In this document: piece after piece, positions 43,883 to 54,404 of the stretch
How positions within the stretch are numbered: the stretch's first letter is position 1
Layout of the letters: the number at the start of each line of letters is the position of its first letter
Program-made: the position numbers and the translations under genes
From: Candidatus Thorarchaeota archaeon
GTDB taxonomy: Archaea; Asgardarchaeota; Thorarchaeia; Thorarchaeales; Thorarchaeaceae
Length of the DNA: 64,000 bases
Direction of reading: 5' to 3'
Assembly (NCBI GenBank): GCA_016840855.1
Contig: JAEORO010000056.1
Location: 74-64,073 of the forward strand
Notes under the pieces: model-generated
What the model was told of the DNA's origin: nothing
Database searches by the model: none
The model's input: only the letters and a program-made list of their open reading frames with translations

Positions 43883-45175
43883 CTATATGTATACAACCTC
43901 AACGAGATGTGCACTACAACTGATACACGGGTCATAGGCGCGAGCAATCATCTCAAATTGAAGTTCGATATTATCGCGCTTGCTCTTTGCGAGTAAATGT
44001 TCGCCCCCACAGCGTATGAAAGCCTCGATATCGTCAAGGAACATAGCTGTTGGAGTAATAAAGTCCGCCGCTTTGATTTTACCATCCTTGACTTCGTAAT
44101 GGTGGATTAATGTACCACGAGGTGCTTCCACCGCTCCAGTACCAATCCCTGTTTCCTGTGTTGGTTGTGCTATTGTTGCATTATCACTAATGAGAAGTTG
44201 ATTTACAGTTTCGATGATGCCCTCGAGAGAATATATTTGTTCAATTGCCTGCGCATGATTGTTGAATAGTGGATTACGGTACCATCGATCTGTGACTAAC
44301 TTGTCGTAAGCTTGTTTGGCCTTGCCCTTGAGTCGTTCGCCAAGAAGAAGAATGCGTGCAAGAGCACCGACTGTGAATGGTTTGTTATTATACTGGCTGC
44401 GTTTGGCGAAACTATGACTCACCACTCGCTCTTTGATAACCCTCTTGTAATTCTCAATAGGATGTTCCTCACCATCAGAGGTCACTAAAATATCGCCATA
44501 ATAACCATACTCATCACCTAGAGGTTTACAACATAGGAATTGGGTTTCTCGCTCCATATGGTCTGGGATTTTTAGACCTCCAAGAAGGTCAATAGTCGCT
44601 ACCGCAAAGTCTAGGAGCTTGATCGCCTCTTCTTTAATTTCTGTGAGGGTTTCTTTTGAAGGAAGCCTACTGAATCCTCCAATAATTGGATTTTCACCAT
44701 GAATCATCCGGCCTCCCATAATTCGCATTACCTTGTTTCCAAACTTCTTGAGCTGCAAAGCTTTTGTCACAGCATCACCATATTTGTCGGCCATTGCAAC
44801 AGCATTGTCATAACCCAGAAAGTCAGGTAATGCTAAGAAGTAGATATGCAGACTATGACTCTCAATCATCTCACCATGATGCATCAACTCTCTATACAAT
44901 AGGGTGGTTGGATCAATATTCACACCAATTGCTTTTTCCAAGCCCCTGAGTGCCGCATACTTATGAGAGAGATTACAGATGGCGCATATTCGAGGAACAA
45001 TGCTTAGATCTTCTTGCGGCGTTTTTCCTACAACTAATTCTTCGAAGAGGCGAGGTCCCTCTAGGATGCGAACTTCGACATTACTGATCTTGTTGTCTTT
45101 GATTTCTACTTTAATACCACCATGGCCTTCTACTCTGGCTAGGGGTTCAATGGAGATCTTCTTCTTGTTAGACAT
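43883..45175 (-). CDS. hydA: [NiFe] hydrogenase large (alpha) subunit, group 3b sulfhydrogenase type
   Basis: N-terminal RICAICNLSH and C-terminal DPCISCSAH Ni-Fe ligand motifs. About 430 aa. Last gene of a beta-gamma-delta-alpha operon. Confidence 0.85.
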   Translation of the reverse strand: MSNKKKISIEPLARVEGHGGIKVEIKDNKISNVEVRILEGPRLFEELVVGKTPQEDLSIVPRICAICNLSHKYAALRGLEKAIGVNIDPTTLLYRELMHHGEMIESHSLHIYFLALPDFLGYDNAVAMADKYGDAVTKALQLKKFGNKVMRIMGGRMIHGENPIIGGFSRLPSKETLTEIKEEAIKLLDFAVATIDLLGGLKIPDHMERETQFLCCKPLGDEYGYYGDILVTSDGEEHPIENYKRVIKERVVSHSFAKRSQYNNKPFTVGALARILLLGERLKGKAKQAYDKLVTDRWYRNPLFNNHAQAIEQIYSLEGIIETVNQLLISDNATIAQPTQETGIGTGAVEAPRGTLIHHYEVKDGKIKAADFITPTAMFLDDIEAFIRCGGEHLLAKSKRDNIELQFEMIARAYDPCISCSAHLVEVVYI

Positions 45176-45176
45176 T

Positions 45177-45953
45177 TCATTTACCTCCGTCTTCGATGAA
45201 TTTTATTATCTTGGAACCTCCGAATCCTCTGATTCGACGTACAATTTCCTCTTTGGTCATTCCAAAGCTCTCCAAAAGCTTGATGTGCTGACTGAAATTG
45301 CCATCTTCATTTGGACCCCAGCAACCCACACATGGAAGCCCATGATTAGGACAAGCTGATCCACATCCTCCCAGAGTGAGGGGTCCAATACAGAATTTAT
45401 CATCAAGAAGCAAGCATCGATTTTCATTAAGCTTGCACTCATGACATACTGGGTGTGGATAAGGTTCAGGAGCTGCTTCGTGGATTAATCTAGATATTAA
45501 TGCAAAAGTCTGAGGTTGACTTATTGGACACCCTGGAAGATAGTAGTCGACATCAACATATGCATCAATGGGTTTTGCTTCCAGAGGTTTAGATACGAAC
45601 TCAACACCTTCTCCATATACTTTCTTCAATCGTTTCTCGTACCCACCATCACCTGTGTACATAGCTTGAGGACCACCATTGACTGCACAGTTGCCAATCG
45701 CTACGAGTATCTTCGCTCGCTCTCTGATTTCATGGAGATGCTCTTTTTCTTCATCTGTGCTAATACTGCCCTCAACAAATGCGACGTCTAAGGCCTCCTC
45801 AATCGGATTGCTTGAAGCCATGACAAAAGATTGAATGGTTGTAGCTCCGAATAGATTGAGAATTTCATCTTCTGTGTGGATGATTAAGAGCTGGTCTCCT
45901 GCACAACCTGTAAATCCATAGATACCAATCCTTGGTTTGTCTGCTGCTGTCAT
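45177..45953 (-). CDS. hydD: [NiFe] hydrogenase small (delta) subunit
   Basis: GFTGCAGD at the N-terminus and multiple Cys clusters (GCGSACP, LPCVGCWGP). Confidence 0.8.
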   Translation of the reverse strand: MTAADKPRIGIYGFTGCAGDQLLIIHTEDEILNLFGATTIQSFVMASSNPIEEALDVAFVEGSISTDEEKEHLHEIRERAKILVAIGNCAVNGGPQAMYTGDGGYEKRLKKVYGEGVEFVSKPLEAKPIDAYVDVDYYLPGCPISQPQTFALISRLIHEAAPEPYPHPVCHECKLNENRCLLLDDKFCIGPLTLGGCGSACPNHGLPCVGCWGPNEDGNFSQHIKLLESFGMTKEEIVRRIRGFGGSKIIKFIEDGGK

Positions 45954-45954
45954 C

Positions 45955-46803
45955 TTAGATCAACTCCCTGAAATGCAGTGTATCCCAGTATGTGAATACT
46001 GGTCCATCCATACATGTATAGAGATGCTCAATAGCACAATGTCCGCACTTACCAATTCCACACTTCATTCGTCTCTCAAGGGAGAGCTGAATCTGATTCT
46101 TTGGTATCTTGAGTTTCAGAAACTCATCGATGACAAATTTGTACATGACTGGTGGGCCAACAACAACAGCATTGGTTTCCTTTGGGTCTATCTCTGGAAG
46201 ATTCTTGAAGAGTTTTGTCACAAGACCAACATTTTCAGTCCAATCTTTATCTGGCTTGTCGACCGTATAGAAACACTCAACGTCCTCGCGTTTTTTAATC
46301 TGGAAGAATTCAGTCTTAAACAGAAACTCATCGGGATTTTTGGATCCGTACAAGAAGAAGATACGGTTGAACATGTCACGATTATCTAGGGCATAGTAAA
46401 GAATGGACCGCAAAGGTATGACTCCCAAGCCACCCGCAACAATGATGAGATCTTTGTTAAACATCTGGTCCAATTTGAATCCGTTTCCATAAGGTCCGCG
46501 TATATAGATGACATCATTGTCACTTTTCTGGAACAGGGCTCTGGTTAGTTTTCCCACATTCCTAATACCAAACTCAAGGATGCCTGGACGGCTAGGAGTA
46601 GATGAAATAGAAAATGGAGCTTCCCCGATACCCGGGATTGACATCATTATAAACTGACCAGGGCTATAGGTAAATGACATAGCTTTTTTCATGTCAATAT
46701 GTCTAACCTGAAAGAATCTATGACCTTTAATCAGATCGTAATGCCTTACGATTCTAGCAGCTTTTGGTTTGAATGGGTTCTCAATTGTTTCAATCAAATT
46801 CAT
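45955..46803 (-). CDS. hydG: sulfhydrogenase gamma subunit (FAD/NAD(P)-binding, 2Fe-2S; AsrB-like)
   Basis: Ferredoxin-reductase-type fold with C-terminal CGIGKCGHC. Start set at MNLIETIE, giving an ATGA overlap with the upstream stop. Confidence 0.8.
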   Translation of the reverse strand: MNLIETIENPFKPKAARIVRHYDLIKGHRFFQVRHIDMKKAMSFTYSPGQFIMMSIPGIGEAPFSISSTPSRPGILEFGIRNVGKLTRALFQKSDNDVIYIRGPYGNGFKLDQMFNKDLIIVAGGLGVIPLRSILYYALDNRDMFNRIFFLYGSKNPDEFLFKTEFFQIKKREDVECFYTVDKPDKDWTENVGLVTKLFKNLPEIDPKETNAVVVGPPVMYKFVIDEFLKLKIPKNQIQLSLERRMKCGIGKCGHCAIEHLYTCMDGPVFTYWDTLHFRELI

Positions 46804-47849
46804 TGCTTTGGCACCTCCTTTGTTGTCAAAGCTTCTGAAACAGTTAATACATTGATATCCACTGGGCACGAGTCCACGCATCGGCCACAGCCAATACATC
46901 CAGGGCGTCCATAATCAACACCGAAAGTCTTCAGTTTGTGACCGTACCATAACCTTAGACGTTCTGCACGCGAAGCACGGAAATTATGTCCTCCCGCAAC
47001 AAGGCTGTAATCCACAAACATGCAACTATCCCATCTCCTATCGCGACGCCCAGTGGTTTCATTTGTCACATCAAAAACATCTACAACATTGTAGCAATTG
47101 CATGTGGGACAAACCATAGAACACTGACCACATGAGAGACATTTCTCGCCAAAGTTCTCCCAAACTTCACTATCGTGGCTTAGTTCCATTATATCTGGCA
47201 TACTATCGAACTCGAAGCTCTTCTTGAACATCTTATTCCGTTTCTGACGCCACTCCACATACATCTGGATGTCTTCATGTGTTACATTATCATCGAAGAA
47301 CTCCTCTCTCTCATATATCATGTCATACCCAAGACTTGACCCTACCCAAACTAGATAGAAATCTCCTAAATCCACGAAGAACAGATCAAACCCCTCTTCC
47401 ACTATATCAGTATCAGTAGAGTGACAGAGGTGATTCTCTAACGGTAGACATGAAAATCCTATAATGGCTGTGTTCTTTCTAAGACCAGTGTAATATGGGT
47501 CTGCGGGTTCTCTCATGAAAACATCATCTAGCCTGAGAAGACTATGTATCTCACAAGGATGAACTCCCAGCACCACTCTCTTCTCAATTACAGAATAGTC
47601 TGGATTGAAACCTGTCCCATCAAAATGCATCATAGTGAACTGCATTGGATGAAAGAGTTTCTTGATCGGAATCATGGGGTGCTTGTCTGTTATGATCAAT
47701 TCTGAAATATTCTCGAGACGATCATAGGACAGCACACCATTCTTCTGTTTGGGTCCATATAGGCTACCAAACTTGTCCAGACTCTCGAGAAAAACCTCGA
47801 GAAACTTCGACTGCATTTTCAATATGCGCATTTGCGGCACCCTGTCCAT
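46800..47849 (-). CDS. hydB: sulfhydrogenase beta subunit (4Fe-4S; AsrA-like)
   Basis: CLSCGQCSMVCPTCNC and CIGCGRCVDSCP clusters. First gene of the operon. Confidence 0.75.
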   Translation of the reverse strand: MDRVPQMRILKMQSKFLEVFLESLDKFGSLYGPKQKNGVLSYDRLENISELIITDKHPMIPIKKLFHPMQFTMMHFDGTGFNPDYSVIEKRVVLGVHPCEIHSLLRLDDVFMREPADPYYTGLRKNTAIIGFSCLPLENHLCHSTDTDIVEEGFDLFFVDLGDFYLVWVGSSLGYDMIYEREEFFDDNVTHEDIQMYVEWRQKRNKMFKKSFEFDSMPDIMELSHDSEVWENFGEKCLSCGQCSMVCPTCNCYNVVDVFDVTNETTGRRDRRWDSCMFVDYSLVAGGHNFRASRAERLRLWYGHKLKTFGVDYGRPGCIGCGRCVDSCPVDINVLTVSEALTTKEVPKQ

Positions 47850-48095
47850 AGAGGACTTTTTGAAACGTCGAGCAGCCTGTTAATCTTAGATATGACTGTT
47901 TGCATAGGTAACTGAGGTTTTTCCTAAATTACATATTTGACTAATTCTTGTTTTACACATGAATGCAGAAAATATTGCTCATTTTCAATAGTTTGTAGCG
48001 AATGTTAAGCCAAACTTATTCAGCTTTTCTTTTTTTATAATAGGCGCGTGATTTTTCCTCCTTTTTCCTATACCACGGAATTTATATTATGAATG

Positions 48096-48112
48096 ACGTA
48101 ATACTATTACGT
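48096..48112. promoter_or_regulatory. 7-3-7 perfect palindrome just downstream of a TATA-like box, upstream of the RHH gene
   Basis: ACGTAAT-act-ATTACGT at 48096-48112, with TTTATATTAT at 48081-48090. The RHH gene starts at 48172. Confidence 0.35.
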
Positions 48113-48171: not shown

Positions 48172-48504
48172 ATGTCAGATAATAAGAAATCAACTAGCCT
48201 TGATAGCGTACAATTAAGTCTTAGAGAACAACTTCTTGGTCGATTGTCAGATGACGACCTCAGTTCCAAGAAAAGAGAAGTTTCAGTCATGACCAGGATG
48301 AGTGGTGATATCGTCGAAATCCTTGATGCATTAGTAGAGCTTGAAATTTTTAAGAGCCGATCCGAGGCTGTTTCTGCATTCGTTGAACAAGCTATATCCG
48401 CACGTATCGAACTTTTTGAAGAGATTAAGACTCAAGCCACTGATATTCGGAAACTGCGTGACTCTGCCAAGAGACATGCATTTGAAGCATTTCAAGAAAA
48501 ATAA
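48172..48504 (+). CDS. ribbon-helix-helix (CopG/Arc/MetJ-like) DNA-binding protein
   Basis: REVSVMTRMSGDIVEILDALVELEIFKSRSEAVSAFVEQAI fits a beta-strand plus two-helix RHH pattern. Confidence 0.6.
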   Translation: MSDNKKSTSLDSVQLSLREQLLGRLSDDDLSSKKREVSVMTRMSGDIVEILDALVELEIFKSRSEAVSAFVEQAISARIELFEEIKTQATDIRKLRDSAKRHAFEAFQEK

Positions 48505-48604
48505 ATCAGAGTTCTCCTTCTTTCGTTATTTTTCTGGGGTGAGTCTAACTCGTAGACCATGATGTCACTCTATTAGTTCATTCAATAAATCTCCGCAATG
48601 AATC

Positions 48605-49093
48605 TCAATGTATCGCATATGCTACATTTTTGAAGTCAATGTGTGCGACAGCATCTTTGTAATCTAGACTTCTCACGGTACCGGGGTCAAGACGGAAGTC
48701 AATGTGTGCGACAGCATCTTTGTAATCTGGGCTTCTCACAGTACCGGGATCAAGACGGAAGTCGATCATTGCAACAGCATCTTTGTAATCTGGGCTTCTC
48801 ACAGTACCGGGGTCAAGACGGAAGTCGATCCTTGCCACAGTTTCCCTGTAGTCAACTCGTGCAACCGTATCTCTGTGATTGATTATTCGGACTTCGCCAG
48901 GATCAAGCCGCCAAGCTATAACGAAAGCAGTCTGCGCGGTGTTCCCCTCATTGAAGTAACTATCTGATGTTACGTCCATTGTATTGTTCATACTCATCCA
49001 AGCAACTGCAATCATCGATCCAAAAGCAGCCAGTGATAAGACGAACAAGACTCCACAAGCAAATACAACCCTATGGGCTTTTTGGTTAAACAT
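48605..49093 (-). CDS. N-terminally membrane-anchored protein made of 21-aa tandem repeats
   Basis: One N-terminal TM helix, then ~5 repeats of the form RLDPGTVRSPDYKDAVAHIDF. Three are nearly identical and two are degenerate. Confidence 0.6.
   Translation of the reverse strand: MFNQKAHRVVFACGVLFVLSLAAFGSMIAVAWMSMNNTMDVTSDSYFNEGNTAQTAFVIAWRLDPGEVRIINHRDTVARVDYRETVARIDFRLDPGTVRSPDYKDAVAMIDFRLDPGTVRSPDYKDAVAHIDFRLDPGTVRSLDYKDAVAHIDFKNVAYAIH
48632..48883. repeat. 63-bp tandem repeat: three near-identical units plus at least one degenerate unit (coding)
   Basis: Units start at 48632, 48695, 48758 and 48821, each beginning GAAGTC(A/G)AT. The period is exactly 63 nt. Confidence 0.9.
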
Positions 49094-49280
49094 TCTCTAT
49101 CTCCTCTTTCTTTTTTTTCAGTGTTGAGATTCAAGGAAGTGTCATCACGAAGTTGGCTCATACCGCAAATTGCTGATCAGAGACCATTATTGACTTCTTG
49201 AATCCTTGAAACACTTGAAATAGTAATACATGTAACATGTAATATACTTTTTGGTATTAGTATACACAATCGAAAGATAT

Positions 49281-49290
49281 ATTACGTAAT
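49281..49290. promoter_or_regulatory. ATTACGTAAT perfect palindrome upstream of the repeat-protein gene
   Basis: It has the same ATTACGT half-site as the palindrome at 48096-48112. TACATGTA-type palindromes lie nearby at ~49227-49245. Confidence 0.3.
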
Positions 49291-49397
49291 AATGTTACAA
49301 TAAGAGAGAAGTCCCCCGAACATGAAGATCGGATTAGTTCTCCTTCTTTCTGTTCTCAACGGGGTGGTCGGGGGATTTCGAAATTATTTTTAACAAA

Positions 49398-51203
49398 TTA
49401 ATTAGAAAGCCTGCGTAGTTTGACAAGGTCATCAGTCAACTCAGAATATCCAATACTCTGAGCTTTTTTATCCCAGTAGATACAGATTGTTCTTTGTCTT
49501 TTGTCGAGTTGTTTCAAATCAAAGTCAAGTCCTATGATTTTTCTCATGAGATGCAATGGGTGATACCATACTTCAATGAATTCCGAGTAATCCGGTTTGT
49601 TTCTCACGACCTCAACATTCGCCAACTCTGCTTTGACAATCGATTCGTATTGAAGCTTTGAATCATCATCCTCGAACAGCTTGATGATAATCTTTTGAAT
49701 TGACTTCATAGTTTCTCTGTAATCCATTTTTGGCCAACTTGCCTGAGGGAGTTCAATCTCGTCGATACTCTCAATCAAAGTTCTTGGTATTTCGTTACCG
49801 AGTATAGAATATGCGAATTGCATACTTGATTTTGAAAAATCATTAACAGCTTGTCCCAAGAAAACTTGTTTCAATATGCTTTGCCGCGGAAGAGTTTGGT
49901 TATTGATATAATAGTAGGTAGGAAAAATCTGTGGATGATTCTTGATCATGTCACGAAGCTCTCTCCAATGAATAGGAGGAAAGTCTGAATGACCTGGTCC
50001 ACCATAGTTATCGTAAACTAGGTTGTTCTTCATTTTATTGAAAAGCTTTGACCCAGGTTCCGGTACTAGTGAATGAATCTGTGTCTTGACCCTTAGCAGA
50101 TGGATTGATTTTATTCTAAAAATATAATCCCAAAGTGCAATTAGGTCATCATCTGTTTCCTCAGGGAATCCAATAATGAAAGACAGTATTAATGTATAAC
50201 CAAGTTCAACTGCGGCTTTTACGGTTTCATCGAGTTTTGTTAGGTCGAGTCGTTTGTTGATTATCTCTTGCATTCTCTCTGTTACAGTTTCTATTCCAAG
50301 GTAAATCCTGTCGCATCCAGCTTCTTTCATTCTACTCAGTATTTCATTATCCAATGAGTCTAATCGTGCACTACAACCCCATTTGATTGGAGTGCCTAGC
50401 TCCGGCAAGGCATCGCATAGTGAAATAATGTATTTCCTGTTGAACGTCAACAGGTCATGATTCATTTTTATTCTTCTTTTATCTCCAAATTTCTCTTTGA
50501 CCAGCTTGATTTCAGAAAGAATACGGTCTACTGATTTCACTCTAAATTTTCTCTTGAAGTAACTTGATGTGGAACAAAAAGTACAAGCAAATGGACATCC
50601 TCTCCCCATCTCAATTGACACCGACTCTTCAAAATCAACATCCTCACTACAAATCCTGTAGTCAGGAATAGGAAGACTATCCAAGTCATCAATTGGATCT
50701 GACCATCCATTATCACGAATCTGATTACCCTCTCTGCAAACAACTCCCTTGATTTGGCTTATCGATTCATTGCTCTGAATCTGTACAATCAGCTTGGGAA
50801 ATGATACATCAGCTTCGCCACGTATAATGATATCAATCTGCTTGAAGGACTTCAAAATCTCCCTAGCACTGAAAGAAGCTCCAGGTCCTCCGAGGATTGT
50901 AACGACATCAGGCTGCAACTCCTTTATTCTACGGCATATCTCCAACGCGACTACAATATTGTTGGACATTGTTGATAGACCCACAATCTTTGGATTTGTG
51001 GATATGATTGCATCAGTCATTTTATCCAAGGCATCATTGTAATCCTGATTTTCTCCAACATTTAGATTTGATAGATCTAACACTTCGACATCTATTGACT
51101 TTAGACCAAGTGCAGATGATAATGCAAGAATGCCTAGACATCTGAAAAGCGGAATTTTAGTTTCCATTGACAATTGGTGTATAGCAATCAATGTTACTTT
51201 CAA
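49398..51203 (-). CDS. B12-binding-domain (class B) radical SAM enzyme with an ~200-aa C-terminal extension
   Basis: N-terminal cobalamin-binding-like region (IVGLSTMSNN...ILGGPGAS). Radical SAM cluster motif CPFACTFC. No Cys-rich SPASM-like tail. Apparent TTG start (MKVTLIA). Confidence 0.85.
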   Translation of the reverse strand: MKVTLIAIHQLSMETKIPLFRCLGILALSSALGLKSIDVEVLDLSNLNVGENQDYNDALDKMTDAIISTNPKIVGLSTMSNNIVVALEICRRIKELQPDVVTILGGPGASFSAREILKSFKQIDIIIRGEADVSFPKLIVQIQSNESISQIKGVVCREGNQIRDNGWSDPIDDLDSLPIPDYRICSEDVDFEESVSIEMGRGCPFACTFCSTSSYFKRKFRVKSVDRILSEIKLVKEKFGDKRRIKMNHDLLTFNRKYIISLCDALPELGTPIKWGCSARLDSLDNEILSRMKEAGCDRIYLGIETVTERMQEIINKRLDLTKLDETVKAAVELGYTLILSFIIGFPEETDDDLIALWDYIFRIKSIHLLRVKTQIHSLVPEPGSKLFNKMKNNLVYDNYGGPGHSDFPPIHWRELRDMIKNHPQIFPTYYYINNQTLPRQSILKQVFLGQAVNDFSKSSMQFAYSILGNEIPRTLIESIDEIELPQASWPKMDYRETMKSIQKIIIKLFEDDDSKLQYESIVKAELANVEVVRNKPDYSEFIEVWYHPLHLMRKIIGLDFDLKQLDKRQRTICIYWDKKAQSIGYSELTDDLVKLRRLSN

Positions 51204-51291
51204 CGAAATCGACTCACTTCCTGTCTGTTTACACTCAAAATAAATGCAAACAGTGATGTCCTAATTGTTTCCATTGTAACTCAAATGATTA

Positions 51292-51543
51292 TCAATCGGT
51301 TATGAAGAACTGAGATGATGAGTAAGGTAAAAGTTCTGCATCCAAACTGTCCTGGCTGTCTATTATTGCTTGATAATTTAAACCCAGAAAATATTGTTGT
51401 TCTTCAGGAGTAAGATCAAGCCACGCGTCAACATAGAATTCATCATCTATTGCAGCAGCAGGTCCTTTGTCTCTCATTGACTCTAGGAAGGAGCGATCCT
51501 TCAACATCCTTGCTATAATTTTATCCGCATCTATTCTCACCAT
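51292..51543 (-). CDS. 83-aa peptide, candidate RiPP precursor B (NHLP/Nif11-like leader)
   Basis: KIIARMLKDRSFLESMRDKGPAAAI resembles the NHLP leader consensus by eye. It is a paralog of the upstream small ORF, with AAGGAG upstream. Confidence 0.5.
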   Translation of the reverse strand: MVRIDADKIIARMLKDRSFLESMRDKGPAAAIDDEFYVDAWLDLTPEEQQYFLGLNYQAIIDSQDSLDAELLPYSSSQFFITD

Positions 51544-51563
51544 AATATCAACTCAACTCCTTT

Positions 51564-51815
51564 CTATATCCAAGCTGGTGGCTTTCGTGGTTTTTCTTCA
51601 GACTCAATCAAGTCCTTCAAATCTTTGAATTTGATCTTCACATCGGTCTTTCCTATGTTTTTGAGAAAATTCAGTTCATCAGCAGTCATAAATTTGGCAT
51701 CGTACCCGATTGTACCTTTTGCATTTTTTATCAAGTCTGCATAGAACATATCGTCTTTCAACAATCTTCTCATGATTTTTTTAAAGGTTGGAGTCATTCT
51801 TGGGAACGATAGCAT
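51564..51815 (-). CDS. 83-aa peptide, candidate RiPP precursor A (NHLP/Nif11-like leader)
   Basis: KIMRRLLKDDMFYADLIKNAKGT...TADELNFL aligns with precursor B. Start set at the ATG preceded by GAGGGG; the ORF-track start at 51821 is a GTG. Confidence 0.5.
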   Translation of the reverse strand: MLSFPRMTPTFKKIMRRLLKDDMFYADLIKNAKGTIGYDAKFMTADELNFLKNIGKTDVKIKFKDLKDLIESEEKPRKPPAWI

Positions 51816-51903
51816 AAGCACCCCTCATTTTGCCATTCGAAACTAGCATTTTCCATTGTATAGCTTCAATATATGTTGTTTTAATGAGTACATAAGCTCA
51901 AAA

Positions 51904-53469
51904 ATGGATTCGAAAGACTCATCTCTAGGGTATGTCTTTAGCTTACGTTACACGCCACCCATGAGGGGTGCAAACTTGCAGCCATTGGGAACAATCACAA
52001 TGTGTCATAAGTTCATCAATAGTGAAGATAAGGACATCATTGATGAAATTGCATCTTCGTCAGAAACTTATCATGAATTTGTAATTTGTCTTGGAGAGCA
52101 TGTCTGCGTTAATGATATTTCATCTGAATTGGCTCACATCGCAATTATTCATGCATGGGAGCTCAGAGAAACTAAGGTGATTGACAAAATCGCAAGTCAA
52201 TATGGCGAAGAACCCTTTGTGAAACCCTGGACCTATCCTATTCGGACTCGTAGTGATAGGCTATCATGCTCGCATCATATCCAAGATGCTGTGGAACTAG
52301 CAATGTATGATAATCCATCAGATTGGATAAAGATGAATCTCCTATTACTCAAATCATATGCTCTATTGCACACTCCTCAAGGACCTGCTGCGTTGGATGA
52401 GGCTAAGGCATTACTAGCAACATCTTCAGACCTCTCATGCTATAGTCCGTATATCCATCATATTGAATGTCGTTTAATTTACGAGCAGGAAGGGAATCTA
52501 CCTGAAGTAATAAGAATCTGCCAAGAAGGTCTTGAATTAGCTTTAAAGTATGACAACCTCTACCAAGCAGTCTGGTTGTATCGATGGCTTGGTATGTTCA
52601 CTATGAATACAAATCCACATCTAGCCTCACAACATCTTGAAGAAGCATATAATATCGCTAATCAATTAGGAACTCCATTTCACACCGCCCAAGCACTTAC
52701 TGAAATGGGTTGGGTTTCGGTCATACTGGGAGAGTACGACCTTGCAATAGCATTCTATGATGAAGCCCGAACACTCTCAACATCTTTAGATGAGGTCAGT
52801 GATCGTCACGCAGTGACCCTCTCGCATATCTGCTCCGACCTAAACGACGCTCAACAAGCACTTGATTGGGCGCAGTGGGCTCTTGAATGGCATATGAATC
52901 AGGGGTCAGAAGGTGATACTTGGACTCACTCAGCAATGGCACGAGCCCTTACATTGCTTGGTCGATTAGATGAAGCTGCACTACACCTTGACACATCGAG
53001 AGAAATGGCGTTCAGAAGTGGCCAAGAGCGGGAAATTGCCTTCTTCTATCTTGTATCAGGTCTTCATGAAATATTTTCAGGGCAACCCGCAAGCGCGATC
53101 GAAACTCTCAGAAGCGCTTTGGAAATTTGCGAACGTACGAAAACTCAAGAATACATGAATAGAGTATTGCTAGCTCTGGTACGTGGAGAGATTGAATTAT
53201 TCAAACAAAGTGGTGGCGATGAAACCAGCGATACATCTGGCCAATGGATGACATACCTAGAAGACATCGCACGCTCCAAAAAACTTCCGGGAATTCTTAT
53301 TCAACATGCACTTTTAAAAGCCGAATTCCTATTGGCACAAGGAAAAACCAGTGAATCTCGAAAAACTCTGATTGTTGCTCTCGATATACACGATTCACCT
53401 GGAGTTAGATCATTACAAAAGCAAGTATTAACAAAAATCAGAGAGATTGATACAGGAGCAAACACCTAG
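51904..53469 (+). CDS. TPR-repeat protein
   Basis: The C-terminal ~350 aa form repeated helix-pair units (e.g. EEAYNIANQLG..., LAIAFYDEARTL..., ALDWAQWALEW...). Divergent from the peptide/rSAM operon. No HTH seen. Confidence 0.6.
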   Translation: MDSKDSSLGYVFSLRYTPPMRGANLQPLGTITMCHKFINSEDKDIIDEIASSSETYHEFVICLGEHVCVNDISSELAHIAIIHAWELRETKVIDKIASQYGEEPFVKPWTYPIRTRSDRLSCSHHIQDAVELAMYDNPSDWIKMNLLLLKSYALLHTPQGPAALDEAKALLATSSDLSCYSPYIHHIECRLIYEQEGNLPEVIRICQEGLELALKYDNLYQAVWLYRWLGMFTMNTNPHLASQHLEEAYNIANQLGTPFHTAQALTEMGWVSVILGEYDLAIAFYDEARTLSTSLDEVSDRHAVTLSHICSDLNDAQQALDWAQWALEWHMNQGSEGDTWTHSAMARALTLLGRLDEAALHLDTSREMAFRSGQEREIAFFYLVSGLHEIFSGQPASAIETLRSALEICERTKTQEYMNRVLLALVRGEIELFKQSGGDETSDTSGQWMTYLEDIARSKKLPGILIQHALLKAEFLLAQGKTSESRKTLIVALDIHDSPGVRSLQKQVLTKIREIDTGANT

Positions 53470-53614: not shown

Positions 53615-53953
53615 TTGAGTAAAGTAAAGAGCACGCTTGCGTTTGGAAAAGATTGGAGAGAGATGTTGAACTACTTAGCTGAATCTGAGTGTTTCGTTGA
53701 TGTATACCTTTGTGCCAGCGCTTATGGACACGCAGATGATAGGGATAATATGGTTGGTGAAACTCACGGGGTGAGAATCATCTATGTCGGTGAAGATTAC
53801 TTCATTGTAGGTCCCAGACGTCCGGTTCACTCTTCTGTGATTCCAATGGGATGGATATCGATGATTCGAGTCCGTGATGACGAAGATACCAACCTGATCA
53901 GTCTAGTGGGCGACGATGATGACTCATTAGAAACTCTGAATGATTTTGAATAG
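53615..53953 (+). CDS. hypothetical acidic protein
   Basis: ORF only, with an apparent TTG start. No motif recognised. Confidence 0.3.
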   Translation: MSKVKSTLAFGKDWREMLNYLAESECFVDVYLCASAYGHADDRDNMVGETHGVRIIYVGEDYFIVGPRRPVHSSVIPMGWISMIRVRDDEDTNLISLVGDDDDSLETLNDFE

Positions 53954-53960
53954 TTTCTAA

Positions 53961-54404
53961 CTAATGAAATATGAAGTCGCTTGAGAGGTGTCGCTTCAAT
54001 TGTAATATTCTTTCAAACAGCTTGTGGAAATGTGTCATGGTCGGTTCTTCCAAAATCTCTTCAATTGATGCCCATTTTAACTGACTATGTTCGACGCTCA
54101 GTTTGATATCACCGCTAATGTATCTGCACCAATATGAGATGTATGCCATTGGAAATTCTTTCCCTCCTCTATAGAAGAAGCCTGTTTCGATCGGCATAAT
54201 GATTTCTGTTTCAAGACCTGTTTCTTCGAATATCTCTCGAAGAATCCCGTCGTCAGGACTTTCTTCTTCCTCAAGTCTCCCTGTGATAATTTCCCATGCA
54301 TTAGGAGCGAAATCTTTCGAACCACTCCTCTTAAGAATCAGGAATCTTCCATCCTTCTCAACTGCAGCACCCATTCCTAAGTACATCTTCTTCATTGTTT
54401 CCAC
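53961..54404 (-). CDS. NUDIX hydrolase
   Basis: Nudix box GRLEEEESPDDGILREIFEETGL. Confidence 0.85.
   Translation of the reverse strand: METMKKMYLGMGAAVEKDGRFLILKRSGSKDFAPNAWEIITGRLEEEESPDDGILREIFEETGLETEIIMPIETGFFYRGGKEFPMAYISYWCRYISGDIKLSVEHSQLKWASIEEILEEPTMTHFHKLFERILQLKRHLSSDFIFH

What the first reader, a model, noticed from the sequence alone, without database searches (positions are those of the whole stretch)
48605..49093. Membrane-anchored protein built from near-identical 21-aa repeats, immediately downstream of the radical SAM gene
After one N-terminal TM helix the protein is essentially (RLDPGTVRSPDYKDAVAHIDF)n. Three units are almost identical at the DNA level (63-bp period, starts at 48632, 48695 and 48758) and two more are diverged. 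Such high DNA identity implies recent expansion or ongoing homogenisation. The gene is co-oriented with the peptide/rSAM operon ~300 nt upstream. It could be a multi-core substrate, an immunity or scaffold component, or an unrelated surface protein. I could not assign the repeat to any named family.
Basis: seen in the sequence. Interest (0 to 1): 0.6.

Follow-up and report, generated by a model that had tools for sequence, protein, structure and literature searches.

The report
Genus-specific membrane-anchored tandem-repeat protein
This is a real small membrane-anchored protein found in only one genus of Thorarchaeota (Asgard archaea), with a strictly conserved anchor helix and a fast-changing repeat tail; it is its own gene unit paired with a small DNA-binding regulator and is not part of the neighbouring radical-SAM peptide operon.

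Summary
ORF 48605..49093(-) encodes 162 aa: an N-terminal TM helix, a 24-aa linker, one diverged 21-aa unit, a 9-aa half unit, three near-identical 21-aa units (63-bp period, 48632-48820) and 8 terminal residues.

The link to the rSAM does not generalise. The family occurs in 22 of 28 genomes of one Thorarchaeota genus and almost nowhere else. An rSAM orthologue sits upstream in only four of them. The ~300 nt upstream of the gene is conserved with or without the rSAM cassette. The constant partner is a convergent RHH-like gene (48172..48504).

Residues 1-61 are conserved (dN/dS 0.13-0.22 across the N-terminus and helix). The tail changes repeat type and number between species but stays acidic. 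AlphaFold2 gives a confident helix and no confident tail fold. No named family matches.

The spacer holds back-to-back promoter-like motifs and a conserved, covarying stem-loop on the opposite strand, a candidate small RNA.

Best reading: an N-in/C-out surface-anchored protein with a slippage-prone tail, transcribed separately. Function is unknown and interest is modest.

The parts
48605..49093 (-). Gene for the 162-aa membrane-anchored repeat protein
   Evidence: ORF. Orthologues. dN/dS below 1.
48983..49093 (-). Codons 1-37: short basic N-terminus (MFNQKAHR) plus TM helix. G25, A31 and S34 are invariant across the divergent set A5; a G25xxxA29 motif is present.
   Evidence: AlphaFold2 helix 4-48 with pLDDT 75-90 over residues 1-30. 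Hydropathy peak 2.28. Invariant columns.
48911..48982 (-). Codons 38-61: conserved acidic juxtamembrane linker, with an NNT sequon in most orthologues
   Evidence: Alignments.
48821..48910 (-). Diverged 21-aa unit (aa 62-82) plus 9-aa half unit RETVARIDF (aa 83-91)
   Evidence: The 9-aa module is the unit type expanded in G026.
48632..48820 (-). Three near-identical 63-bp / 21-aa units, RLDPGTVRS(P/L)DYKDAVA(M/H)IDF
   Evidence: Unit dN/dS 0.09-0.23.
49101..49104 (-). Shine-Dalgarno GGAG, 7 nt before the ATG, inside the purine tract GAAAGAGGAGA
   Evidence: Sequence. Conserved GGAGGAGA in orthologues.
49219..49247 (-). Promoter-like region of the repeat gene: TATA-like GTATATTA (49240-49247) followed by GTATTACTATT (49219-49229), which resembles the RHH operator half
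   Evidence: Conserved in genomes with and without the rSAM. Motif scan. The promoter role is inferred.
49281..49290 (.). Palindrome ATTACGTAAT between the two divergent promoter-like elements
49308..49379 (+). Conserved stem-loop element, a candidate small RNA antisense to the repeat gene: 12-bp outer stem, variable hairpin GAAG..CUUC, invariant hairpin CUGUU-CUC-AACGG. A T-tract follows at 49384-49391.
   Evidence: Conserved in 13 genomes, single copy per genome. The + strand folds better in 11 of 11 orthologues. 96.8% of outer-stem cells pair, 3 pairs show compensatory changes, and many G-U pairs work only on this strand. No Rfam family.
48511..48558 (.). Convergent spacer between the repeat-gene stop and the RHH stop: second copy of the motif CACCCC-N-GAAAGAAGGAGAAC (48511-48541) plus a covarying hairpin (48541-48558)
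   Evidence: The motif occurs only at these two places in the 3.36-Mb genome.
48172..48504 (+). Convergent 110-aa RHH-like gene, the constant partner of the repeat gene
   Evidence: Adjacent in all loci examined. Co-occurrence. The best PDB profile hit is the NikR RHH domain, but it is not significant (E 0.27).
48081..48112 (+). RHH promoter-like region: TATA TTTATATT (48081-48088) plus the perfect 17-bp palindrome ACGTAAT-ACT-ATTACGT (48096-48112), unique in the genome
49398..53469 (.). Facultative cassette, not part of the repeat-gene unit: ApyD-like B12-rSAM (49398..51203 -), two NHLP-like peptides (51292..51543 -, 51564..51821 -) and a TPR protein (51856..53469 +)
   Evidence: Present in G026, G004 and G002; absent from G005, G014, G013, G006 and G003 at the same locus.

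Best explanation
The gene encodes a lineage-specific single-pass membrane protein, with the N-terminus inside and the C-terminus outside, found in one Thorarchaeota genus. The constrained part is the first ~61 residues: a basic N-terminus, a ~29-residue helix with an invariant Gly and a GxxxA-type small-residue face, and an acidic linker. I infer that this part holds the protein in the membrane and contacts itself or a membrane partner. The rest is an acidic, aromatic-containing tail built from short 'turn + V-R-x-I-D-[YF]' modules of 9 or 12 aa (12 + 9 = the 21-aa unit). These modules expand, contract and are replaced by unequal recombination or slippage. Different species therefore display different repeat types and numbers on the cell surface. 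The gene is a transcription unit of its own, with its own TATA-like box, operator-like motifs shared with the promoter of the convergent RHH-like gene, and a strong SD. I infer that the RHH protein regulates both genes. The rSAM/peptide/TPR cassette is a facultative neighbour present in a minority of species, and the repeat protein is not its substrate. Shown here: the anatomy, the phyletic distribution, the synteny, purifying selection, the conserved non-coding elements and the lack of a confident tail fold. Inferred: the topology, surface exposure, RHH regulation, and the role of the tail as a variable surface-exposed module.
For: Distribution: a single protein query finds the family in 16 of 61 relatives, all in one genus. 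An N-terminal profile finds 22 of 28 genomes in the genus and one strong plus two marginal hits in 58 other genomes of the family. An exhaustive profile search of 1.84 billion representatives returns 27 hits; about 20 are small TM proteins and the rest are repeat noise.

Conserved N-terminus, variable tail. dN/dS is 0.13-0.22 for codons 1-38. Tails are acidic in 12 of 14 members (pI 4.0-5.2) despite unrelated sequences.

Copy-number differences between near-identical proteins: P0002/P0010 differ by one 21-aa unit and P0005/P0006 by one 12-aa unit.

Independence from the rSAM: rSAM orthologues occur in only 4 genomes, plus one fragment. The same ~300-nt upstream DNA is present with or without the rSAM. 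A conserved structured element on the opposite strand lies between the rSAM and the repeat gene.

RHH partnership: the two genes are convergently adjacent in every locus inspected, including G003 where the hydrogenase is elsewhere. All 21 genomes with an RHH orthologue (73% identity or more) have the TM gene, and the six genomes without the TM gene have only RHH paralogues or none. Related operator-like motifs sit at both promoters.

Topology: three basic residues (K5, R8, plus H7) precede the helix, and three acidic and no basic residues occupy the 15 residues after it (sequence).
Against: There is no experimental or structural evidence for any function. AlphaFold2 gives pLDDT ~25-38 for the tail in two family members, so 'beta-strand/turn modules' rests on sequence pattern and low-confidence strands only.

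An invariant Ala at -1 and a mostly small residue at -3 (AVA|W) could be a signal-peptidase site. In that case the tail would be released rather than anchored.

The rSAM, where it is present with enough contig, is always the immediate upstream neighbour (4 of 4), and no T5 terminator separates them on the coding strand. Read-through and a functional link therefore remain possible.

RHH regulation is inferred from shared motifs only. Adjacent genes are also lost or left unassembled together, which weakens the co-occurrence argument.

Unit-level dN/dS of 0.09-0.23 shows that the repeat sequence is under selection, which sits uneasily with a purely 'free' tail.
Confidence: 0.55

Rival explanations
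1. The protein is an accessory of the ApyD-like rSAM/NHLP-peptide cassette. It could be an immunity, export or scaffold component, or a membrane-tethered multi-core substrate whose Tyr/Phe-containing units are modified by the rSAM.
For: The rSAM orthologue lies directly upstream and co-oriented, with a gap of 280-315 nt, in all four genomes where it can be placed (G000, G026, G004, G002). The rSAM's closest named model is ApyD (E 5e-98, below cut-off). ApyD makes beta-methyl-tyrosine in a RiPP (PMC10635010), and every repeat unit carries Tyr or Phe. A conserved N-terminus with a hypervariable C-terminus is also the leader/core pattern of RiPP precursors. No T5 terminator lies between the genes on the coding strand.
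Against: About 18 of the 22 genomes with the gene lack the rSAM. Tails with the same Tyr/Phe pattern occur without the rSAM (G005, G014, G013). In rSAM-positive G002 the tail has no repeats. The upstream region is the same with or without the cassette and contains promoter-like motifs and an opposite-strand structured element. Better substrates, two NHLP-like peptides, sit directly upstream of the rSAM. No NHLP/Nif11 leader or any RiPP family matches the repeat protein. The four linked loci can be explained by a single ancestral arrangement.
Confidence: 0.12
2. The function lies entirely in the transmembrane helix, as in small membrane proteins that bind and modulate a transporter, sensor or respiratory complex. 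The tail is an evolutionarily labile appendage with little sequence-specific role.
For: Only residues 1-61 are conserved across the genus. The helix has an invariant Gly and small-residue spacing. Some members (G002, G006) have short non-repeat tails. AlphaFold2 sees no tail fold.
Against: Every complete member read here keeps a tail of 68 aa or more with conserved acidic composition. Repeat units are under purifying selection (dN/dS 0.09-0.23). No candidate partner gene is syntenic apart from the cytoplasmic RHH.
Confidence: 0.15
3. The N-terminal hydrophobic segment is a cleaved Sec signal peptide, and the repeat region is released as a secreted, possibly self-assembling (beta-solenoid or amyloid-like) protein.
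For: The n-region, h-region and AxA-like AVA|W motif, with Ala invariant at -1, are visible. A 21-aa strand-turn-strand repeat recalls curli CsgA and HET-s rungs (from memory). AlphaFold2 places one short strand per unit in P0005.
Against: The hydrophobic stretch is ~23-29 residues, long for a signal peptide, and far better conserved than signal peptides usually are. One member has Tyr at -3 (G003). AlphaFold2 extends the helix to residue 48 and gives no solenoid. The tail is acidic and charged rather than Gln/Asn/Gly-rich.
Confidence: 0.1
4. The gene is real, but the count of three near-identical units is an assembly approximation, with copies collapsed or expanded in a short-read MAG.
For: Repeat arrays in relatives do break assemblies. 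G004's gene contains an N gap inside its repeats. G027's gene is split across two contig ends. The window's protein is known from a single contig.
Against: Each unit carries private substitutions and the longest exact repeat is 38 bp, so ordinary 100-150-nt reads can bridge it. The units are in frame and under purifying selection.
Confidence: 0.08

Closest known systems
Size-variable membrane-anchored repeat surface proteins such as Mycoplasma Vlp/Vsa lipoproteins (comparison from memory)
   Same: Both have a conserved N-terminal membrane anchor followed by in-frame tandem repeats. Repeat number differs between close strains, and the tail is charged, low in complexity and has no globular fold.
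   Different: There is no homology, and no lipobox (the Cys at position 13 is not conserved). The gene is single-copy rather than a phase-variable multigene locus, the host is an archaeon, and repeat type as well as number changes between species. Surface exposure and any shielding role are untested.
Tandem repeats that create intrinsically disordered regions in Borg elements of Methanoperedens (bioRxiv 10.1101/2022.05.18.492195, found; abstract only read)
   Same: Both are archaeal coding tandem repeats that evolve fast, arise independently, and yield regions without a predicted fold.
   Different: Borg repeats are described as recently formed. Here the units are 87-94% identical with mostly synonymous differences, and the gene is chromosomal and confined to one genus.
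Multi-core RiPP precursors and the ApyD (aminopyruvatide) pathway (PMC10635010)
   Same: The N-terminal part is conserved and the repeated C-terminal part is hypervariable. In four species an ApyD-like B12-rSAM lies immediately upstream.
   Different: No leader family matches. The 'leader' would be a TM helix. Most genomes with the gene lack the rSAM. The rSAM scores 329 bits against an ApyD cut-off of 750. NHLP-like peptides are the more likely substrates.
Strand-turn repeats of about 21 aa in beta-solenoid or amyloid proteins (CsgA, HET-s) and 9-aa RTX beta-roll repeats (from memory)
   Same: The unit lengths are the same (21 aa; 9-aa sub-module), with Asp-containing turns alternating with short hydrophobic strands.
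   Different: There is no Pfam match to curlin or RTX repeats, no GGxGxD motif, and AlphaFold2 predicts no solenoid.

Membership tests
RiPP precursor of the adjacent rSAM (multi-core substrate) | Obligate co-occurrence with its modifying enzyme | tested here: not met
   The rSAM orthologue is adjacent in 4 of 22 genomes that carry the gene.
RiPP precursor of the adjacent rSAM (multi-core substrate) | Recognisable leader (NHLP/Nif11-type, as in the neighbouring peptides) | tested here: not met
   No NCBIfam or Pfam leader hit for the repeat protein. The two upstream peptides give weak NHLP-clan hits (E ~0.005).
RiPP precursor of the adjacent rSAM (multi-core substrate) | Post-translational modification of the core by the rSAM | not testable with these tools
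   Needs co-expression and mass spectrometry.
Archaeal type IV pilin-like proteins (class III signal peptide) | [KR]-[GA] cleavage motif immediately before the hydrophobic stretch | tested here: not met
   The N-termini read KRAHR-VV, KRTHR-VV and KRSAR-LG. No conserved G/A at -1 is followed directly by the hydrophobic segment.
MnhE subunit of the Na+/H+ antiporter (JGI label on homologue P0002) | Match to the MnhE family model | tested here: not met
   No MnhE hit in Pfam or NCBIfam for the window protein. There are no Mnh genes in the neighbourhoods.
HycI hydrogenase maturation protease | Score above the Pfam gathering threshold over the domain | tested here: not met
   17.3 bits against a cut-off of 23, covering 22 residues of one repeat unit only.
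RTX / beta-roll calcium-binding repeats | GGxGxDxUx nonapeptide and a family-model match | tested here: not met
   No such motif in the sequence and no Pfam hit.
Membrane-anchored variable-number tandem-repeat surface proteins (functional class, not a homology family) | Conserved N-terminal anchor with an in-frame tandem-repeat tail | tested here: met
Membrane-anchored variable-number tandem-repeat surface proteins (functional class, not a homology family) | Repeat number varies between close relatives | tested here: met
   P0002 (144 aa) vs P0010 (123 aa), and P0005 (172 aa) vs P0006 (160 aa), each differ by one unit. Assembly collapse cannot be fully excluded.
Membrane-anchored variable-number tandem-repeat surface proteins (functional class, not a homology family) | Tail exposed on the cell surface | not testable with these tools
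   Supported only by the positive-inside charge distribution.

The most novel reading that the evidence does not exclude
The conserved N-terminus (TM helix plus linker) acts as a membrane-tethered leader, and the hypervariable repeat tail is a multi-core precursor. Its Tyr/Phe-containing units would be tailored by the ApyD-like B12-rSAM in the species that carry it, and processed or displayed unmodified elsewhere. This would be a membrane-anchored, repeat-encoded RiPP in an Asgard archaeon.
Probability: 0.06. Interest if true: 0.8.

Novelty: new member of a known kind. Interest (0 to 1): 0.3.

Why it matters
The practical result is a correction. The repeat protein should not be annotated as part of the Thorarchaeota rSAM/RiPP cluster, and the cluster's boundary lies at about 49398.

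The protein defines a small, genus-restricted orphan family with an unusually conserved transmembrane helix and a tail that is rebuilt from short modules in each species. It is a compact example of repeat-driven protein evolution in Asgard archaea. It may also mark cell-surface diversification in this lineage, for example through virus or cell-cell interactions.

The conserved non-coding elements around it could give a testable small regulatory circuit in organisms for which almost no regulation is known. These elements are a unique palindrome at the RHH promoter, a covarying opposite-strand stem-loop, and a motif that occurs only at the two flanks of the gene.

Tried and rejected
Copy number and co-transcription could not be tested.
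- Structure: two AlphaFold2 runs (window protein and P0005, 10-sequence alignment) gave a confident helix only, with tail pLDDT 25-38. I therefore ran no fold search, because matches would be meaningless.
- Sequence families: Pfam, NCBIfam, PADLOC and PHROGs gave nothing above noise for the repeat protein. A PDB sequence search of the tail gave no hit at E up to 10.
- Long hits in the exhaustive search (WD40, LRR and FAZ1 repeat proteins of 735-2087 aa) are repeat-versus-repeat matches and not homologues.
- The 48-aa ORF called 18 nt upstream in relatives is rejected. Its start is not conserved in the window, and it lies in the less conserved part of the 5' region.
- The JGI label 'MnhE' and the sub-threshold HycI hit are both rejected (see membership tests).
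- The idea that the flanking motif is a dispersed repeat or MITE is rejected. It occurs only twice in the genome, both times at this locus.
- A wider regulon for the operator-like motif: the short motif occurs about as often as chance expects, and the other sites are unremarkable. The full 17-bp palindrome is unique.
- Rfam: no family for the spacer element.
- Literature: no paper on this family was found.

Full report
**1. Observation.** ORF 48605..49093 on the minus strand encodes 162 aa. Tandem Repeats Finder reports a 63-bp period, 3.1 copies and 92% matches at 48632-48826.

The protein has these parts:
- aa 1-8: basic N-terminus, MFNQKAHR.
- aa 9-37: hydrophobic helix.
- aa 38-61: acidic linker.
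- aa 62-82: one diverged 21-aa unit.
- aa 83-91: a 9-aa half unit, RETVARIDF.
- aa 92-154: three units RLDPGTVRS(P/L)DYKDAVA(M/H)IDF, differing at 4-8 of 63 nt.
- aa 155-162: eight terminal residues.

The longest exact repeat is 38 bp, so ordinary short reads could resolve the array. The gene lies 304 nt downstream of, and co-oriented with, the B12-rSAM gene 49398..51203.

**2. It is a real, selected gene of narrow distribution.** The genome is a Thorarchaeota MAG; named homologues come from Candidatus Thorarchaeota SMTZ-45 and SMTZ1-45.
- A single-protein search of 61 relatives finds the gene in 16 genomes, all of one GTDB genus.
- A profile of the N-terminal 62 positions finds it once per genome in 22 of 28 genomes of that genus. 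In 58 other genomes of the family it finds only one strong hit (at a contig edge) and two marginal ones.
- An exhaustive profile search of 1.84 billion representatives gives 27 hits. About 20 are TM proteins of 42-217 aa. The long ones are WD40, LRR or FAZ1 repeat proteins matched through periodicity only.
- dN/dS against two sister species is 0.13-0.22 for codons 1-38 and 0.40-0.47 for the linker.

**3. Conserved head, rebuilt tail.** Residues 1-61 align across all members, with M1, R8, G25, A31 and S34 invariant. The tail differs by species:

| Member | Tail |
|---|---|
| Window, P0002, P0003, P0007-P0010 | 21-aa units |
| G005, G013, P0011 | 12-aa units such as R(V/L)DPxxVRILD(Y/F) |
| G026, P0013 | 27-aa units made of three 9-aa modules |
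| G004 | 10-aa units VDRLVYFENA |
| G003 | YNPxWGIPRGPI-type repeats |
| P0022, P0023 | GPGENP-type repeats |
| G002, G006 | No repeats |

- The 21-aa unit is a 12-aa module plus a 9-aa module. The window's proximal units are of the 9-aa type that G026 has expanded.
- Tails are acidic in 12 of 14 members (pI 4.0-5.2) and contain 5-13% aromatic residues.
- Near-identical proteins differ by exactly one unit: P0002 vs P0010, and P0005 vs P0006.
- The window's three units share derived residues (SPDY, AVA[HM]IDF) and are each other's closest relatives, at 95% against 90% to any foreign unit.
- Their differences are mostly synonymous (dS 0.24-0.37, dN/dS 0.09-0.23). The expansion is therefore lineage-specific but not very recent, and the peptide sequence is under selection.
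- AlphaFold2 gives a confident helix (residues 4-48 helical; pLDDT 75-90 over residues 1-30) and pLDDT ~25 for the window's tail. For P0005 it places one short strand per unit at pLDDT 34-38.
- Pfam, NCBIfam, PADLOC, PHROGs and PDB sequences give nothing meaningful.

**4. Relation to the rSAM cassette.** The rSAM is ApyD-like but below the model's cut-off (E 5e-98; 329 bits against 750). The two upstream peptides give weak NHLP-clan hits. ApyD makes beta-methyl-tyrosine in a RiPP (PMC10635010).

Within the genus, rSAM orthologues exist only in G000, G026 (90% identity), G004 (57%) and G002 (46%), plus a contig-edge fragment in G011. In all four placeable cases the repeat-family gene follows after 280-315 nt. 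G004 shows the same order as the window: hydrogenase, RHH, repeat gene, rSAM, peptide, TPR.

In G005, G014, G013, G006, G003 and the source genome of L005, the repeat-family gene is present without the rSAM, the peptides or the TPR gene. In G006 the neighbours NUDIX and the 112-aa gene (window 53961..54404 and 53615..53953) directly adjoin the repeat gene's upstream region. The cassette at about 49398-53469 is therefore a presence/absence block.

The ~300 nt upstream of the repeat gene is conserved DNA in both kinds of genome. This argues that the gene is not simply the last cistron of the rSAM operon. The four linked loci can derive from one ancestral arrangement, so they count as roughly one observation in favour of a functional link.

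**5. The constant partner and the cis elements.** A convergent 110-aa gene (48172..48504) is adjacent in every locus examined, including G003, where the hydrogenase operon is not nearby.
- Its orthologue (73% identity or more) occurs in 21 genus genomes, all of which have the TM gene. The six genomes without the TM gene have only paralogues or none.
- Its central segment has a ribbon-helix-helix pattern. The best PDB profile hit is the NikR RHH domain over exactly that segment, but it is not significant (E 0.27).
- Its promoter region has a TATA box followed by a perfect 17-bp palindrome, ACGTAAT-ACT-ATTACGT. This palindrome is conserved in relatives and unique in the genome.
- Related half-sites (ATTACGTAAT at 49281-49290; GTATTACTATT at 49219-49229) lie in the repeat gene's upstream region, next to TATA-like boxes on both strands.

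A 72-nt block at 49308-49379 has these properties:
- It is conserved in 13 genomes, always ~215-285 nt upstream of the repeat-gene ATG, and single-copy per genome.
- It folds better on the + strand in 11 of 11 orthologues.
- On an alignment of 13 sequences, 96.8% of outer-stem cells pair. Three pairs show compensatory changes, and many G-U pairs would be A-C mismatches on the other strand. Slid controls drop to 36-65% paired.
- On the + strand it is preceded by a TATA-like box plus the palindrome, and followed by a T-tract.

It is therefore a candidate small RNA divergent from the repeat gene and convergent with the rSAM. Part of its sequence (AGTTCTCCTTCTTTC-N-GGGGTG) recurs just after the RHH stop at 48510-48541. 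That copy is also conserved in relatives, and the motif occurs nowhere else in the genome. The CU-rich tract is complementary to the repeat gene's RBS, GAAAGAGGAGA. This is noted as a lead only. No Rfam family matches.

**6. Mechanism I commit to.** The protein is a signal-anchored, N-in/C-out membrane protein. Its conserved helix and linker do the specific work: membrane insertion, and self- or partner-association through the small-residue face. Its acidic repeat tail is displayed outside the cell and is remodelled by unequal recombination. The gene is transcribed from its own promoter, probably under the neighbouring RHH protein. My confidence is 0.55 for this package. The anatomy, distribution and independence from the rSAM are well supported. 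Topology, regulation and the role of the tail are inferred.

The rivals, with evidence and refuting tests in their own sections, are:
- an rSAM-linked accessory or substrate (0.12);
- function in the helix only (0.15);
- a cleaved, secreted repeat protein (0.10);
- a mis-assembled copy number (0.08).

**7. Comparison and novelty.** By function, it most resembles membrane-anchored, size-variable repeat surface proteins such as Mycoplasma Vlp/Vsa (from memory), and the repeat-generated disordered regions of archaeal Borg elements. It is not homologous to either. It fails the tested defining features of RiPP precursors, class III signal peptides, MnhE, HycI and RTX repeats. I rate it a new member, an orphan family, of a known kind of protein. 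Interest is 0.3: the striking repeats are real but the attractive RiPP link is mostly not supported. The conserved regulatory elements are the most promising follow-up.

Noticed in passing
window 49308-49379 (+ strand), T-tract 49384-49391: A conserved, covarying stem-loop lies antisense to the repeat gene and convergent with the rSAM gene. It has a 12-bp outer stem, a variable GAAG..CUUC hairpin and an invariant CUGUU-CUC-AACGG hairpin. It is present once per genome in at least 13 genomes of the genus and has no Rfam match. It is a candidate small RNA whose own TATA-like box and palindrome lie upstream.
   Followed up: partly
window 48511-48558: A second copy of the motif CACCCC-N-GAAAGAAGGAGAAC, plus a hairpin with compensatory changes, lies in the 100-nt convergent spacer between the repeat-gene stop and the RHH stop. 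It is conserved in relatives, and the motif occurs only at these two places in the 3.36-Mb genome. Its purpose is unexplained.
   Followed up: partly
window 48081-48112: The RHH-like gene's promoter region carries a TATA box and a perfect 17-bp palindrome, ACGTAAT-ACT-ATTACGT. The palindrome is conserved across species and unique in the genome, which suggests autoregulation.
   Followed up: partly
own genome contigs C78:1317-3259, C64:3223-5083, C162:9673-9987: Paralogues of the RHH-like gene sit next to paralogues of the TPR protein (N-terminus KPLGTITM...) on C78 and C64. All three paralogues are adjacent to genes for proteins with N-terminal signal or anchor sequences. RHH plus TPR may be a recurring regulatory pair in this genome.
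   Followed up: no
window 49398-53469: The rSAM/peptide/TPR block is a presence/absence cassette within the genus. It lies between the 112-aa gene (53615..53953) and the conserved spacer element in G000, G026, G004 and G002, and is missing from the same site in G005, G014, G013 and G006.
   Followed up: partly
L012/L023 (G004:C15) and G027:C231/C234: The orthologous repeat arrays break assemblies in relatives. G004's gene contains a run of N inside its 10-aa repeats, and G027's gene is split over two contig ends.
   Followed up: no
G018:C74:9050-9166 and G011:C173:2846-2899: The orthologues in two genomes carry an in-frame TGA or are truncated. They may be pseudogenes or sequencing errors.
   Followed up: no
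window 43883-47849: A four-gene group-3b-type [NiFe]-hydrogenase operon lies next to the RHH/repeat-gene pair in most genomes of the genus, but not in G003. The hydrogenase is therefore a frequent neighbour but not an obligate one.
   Followed up: partly
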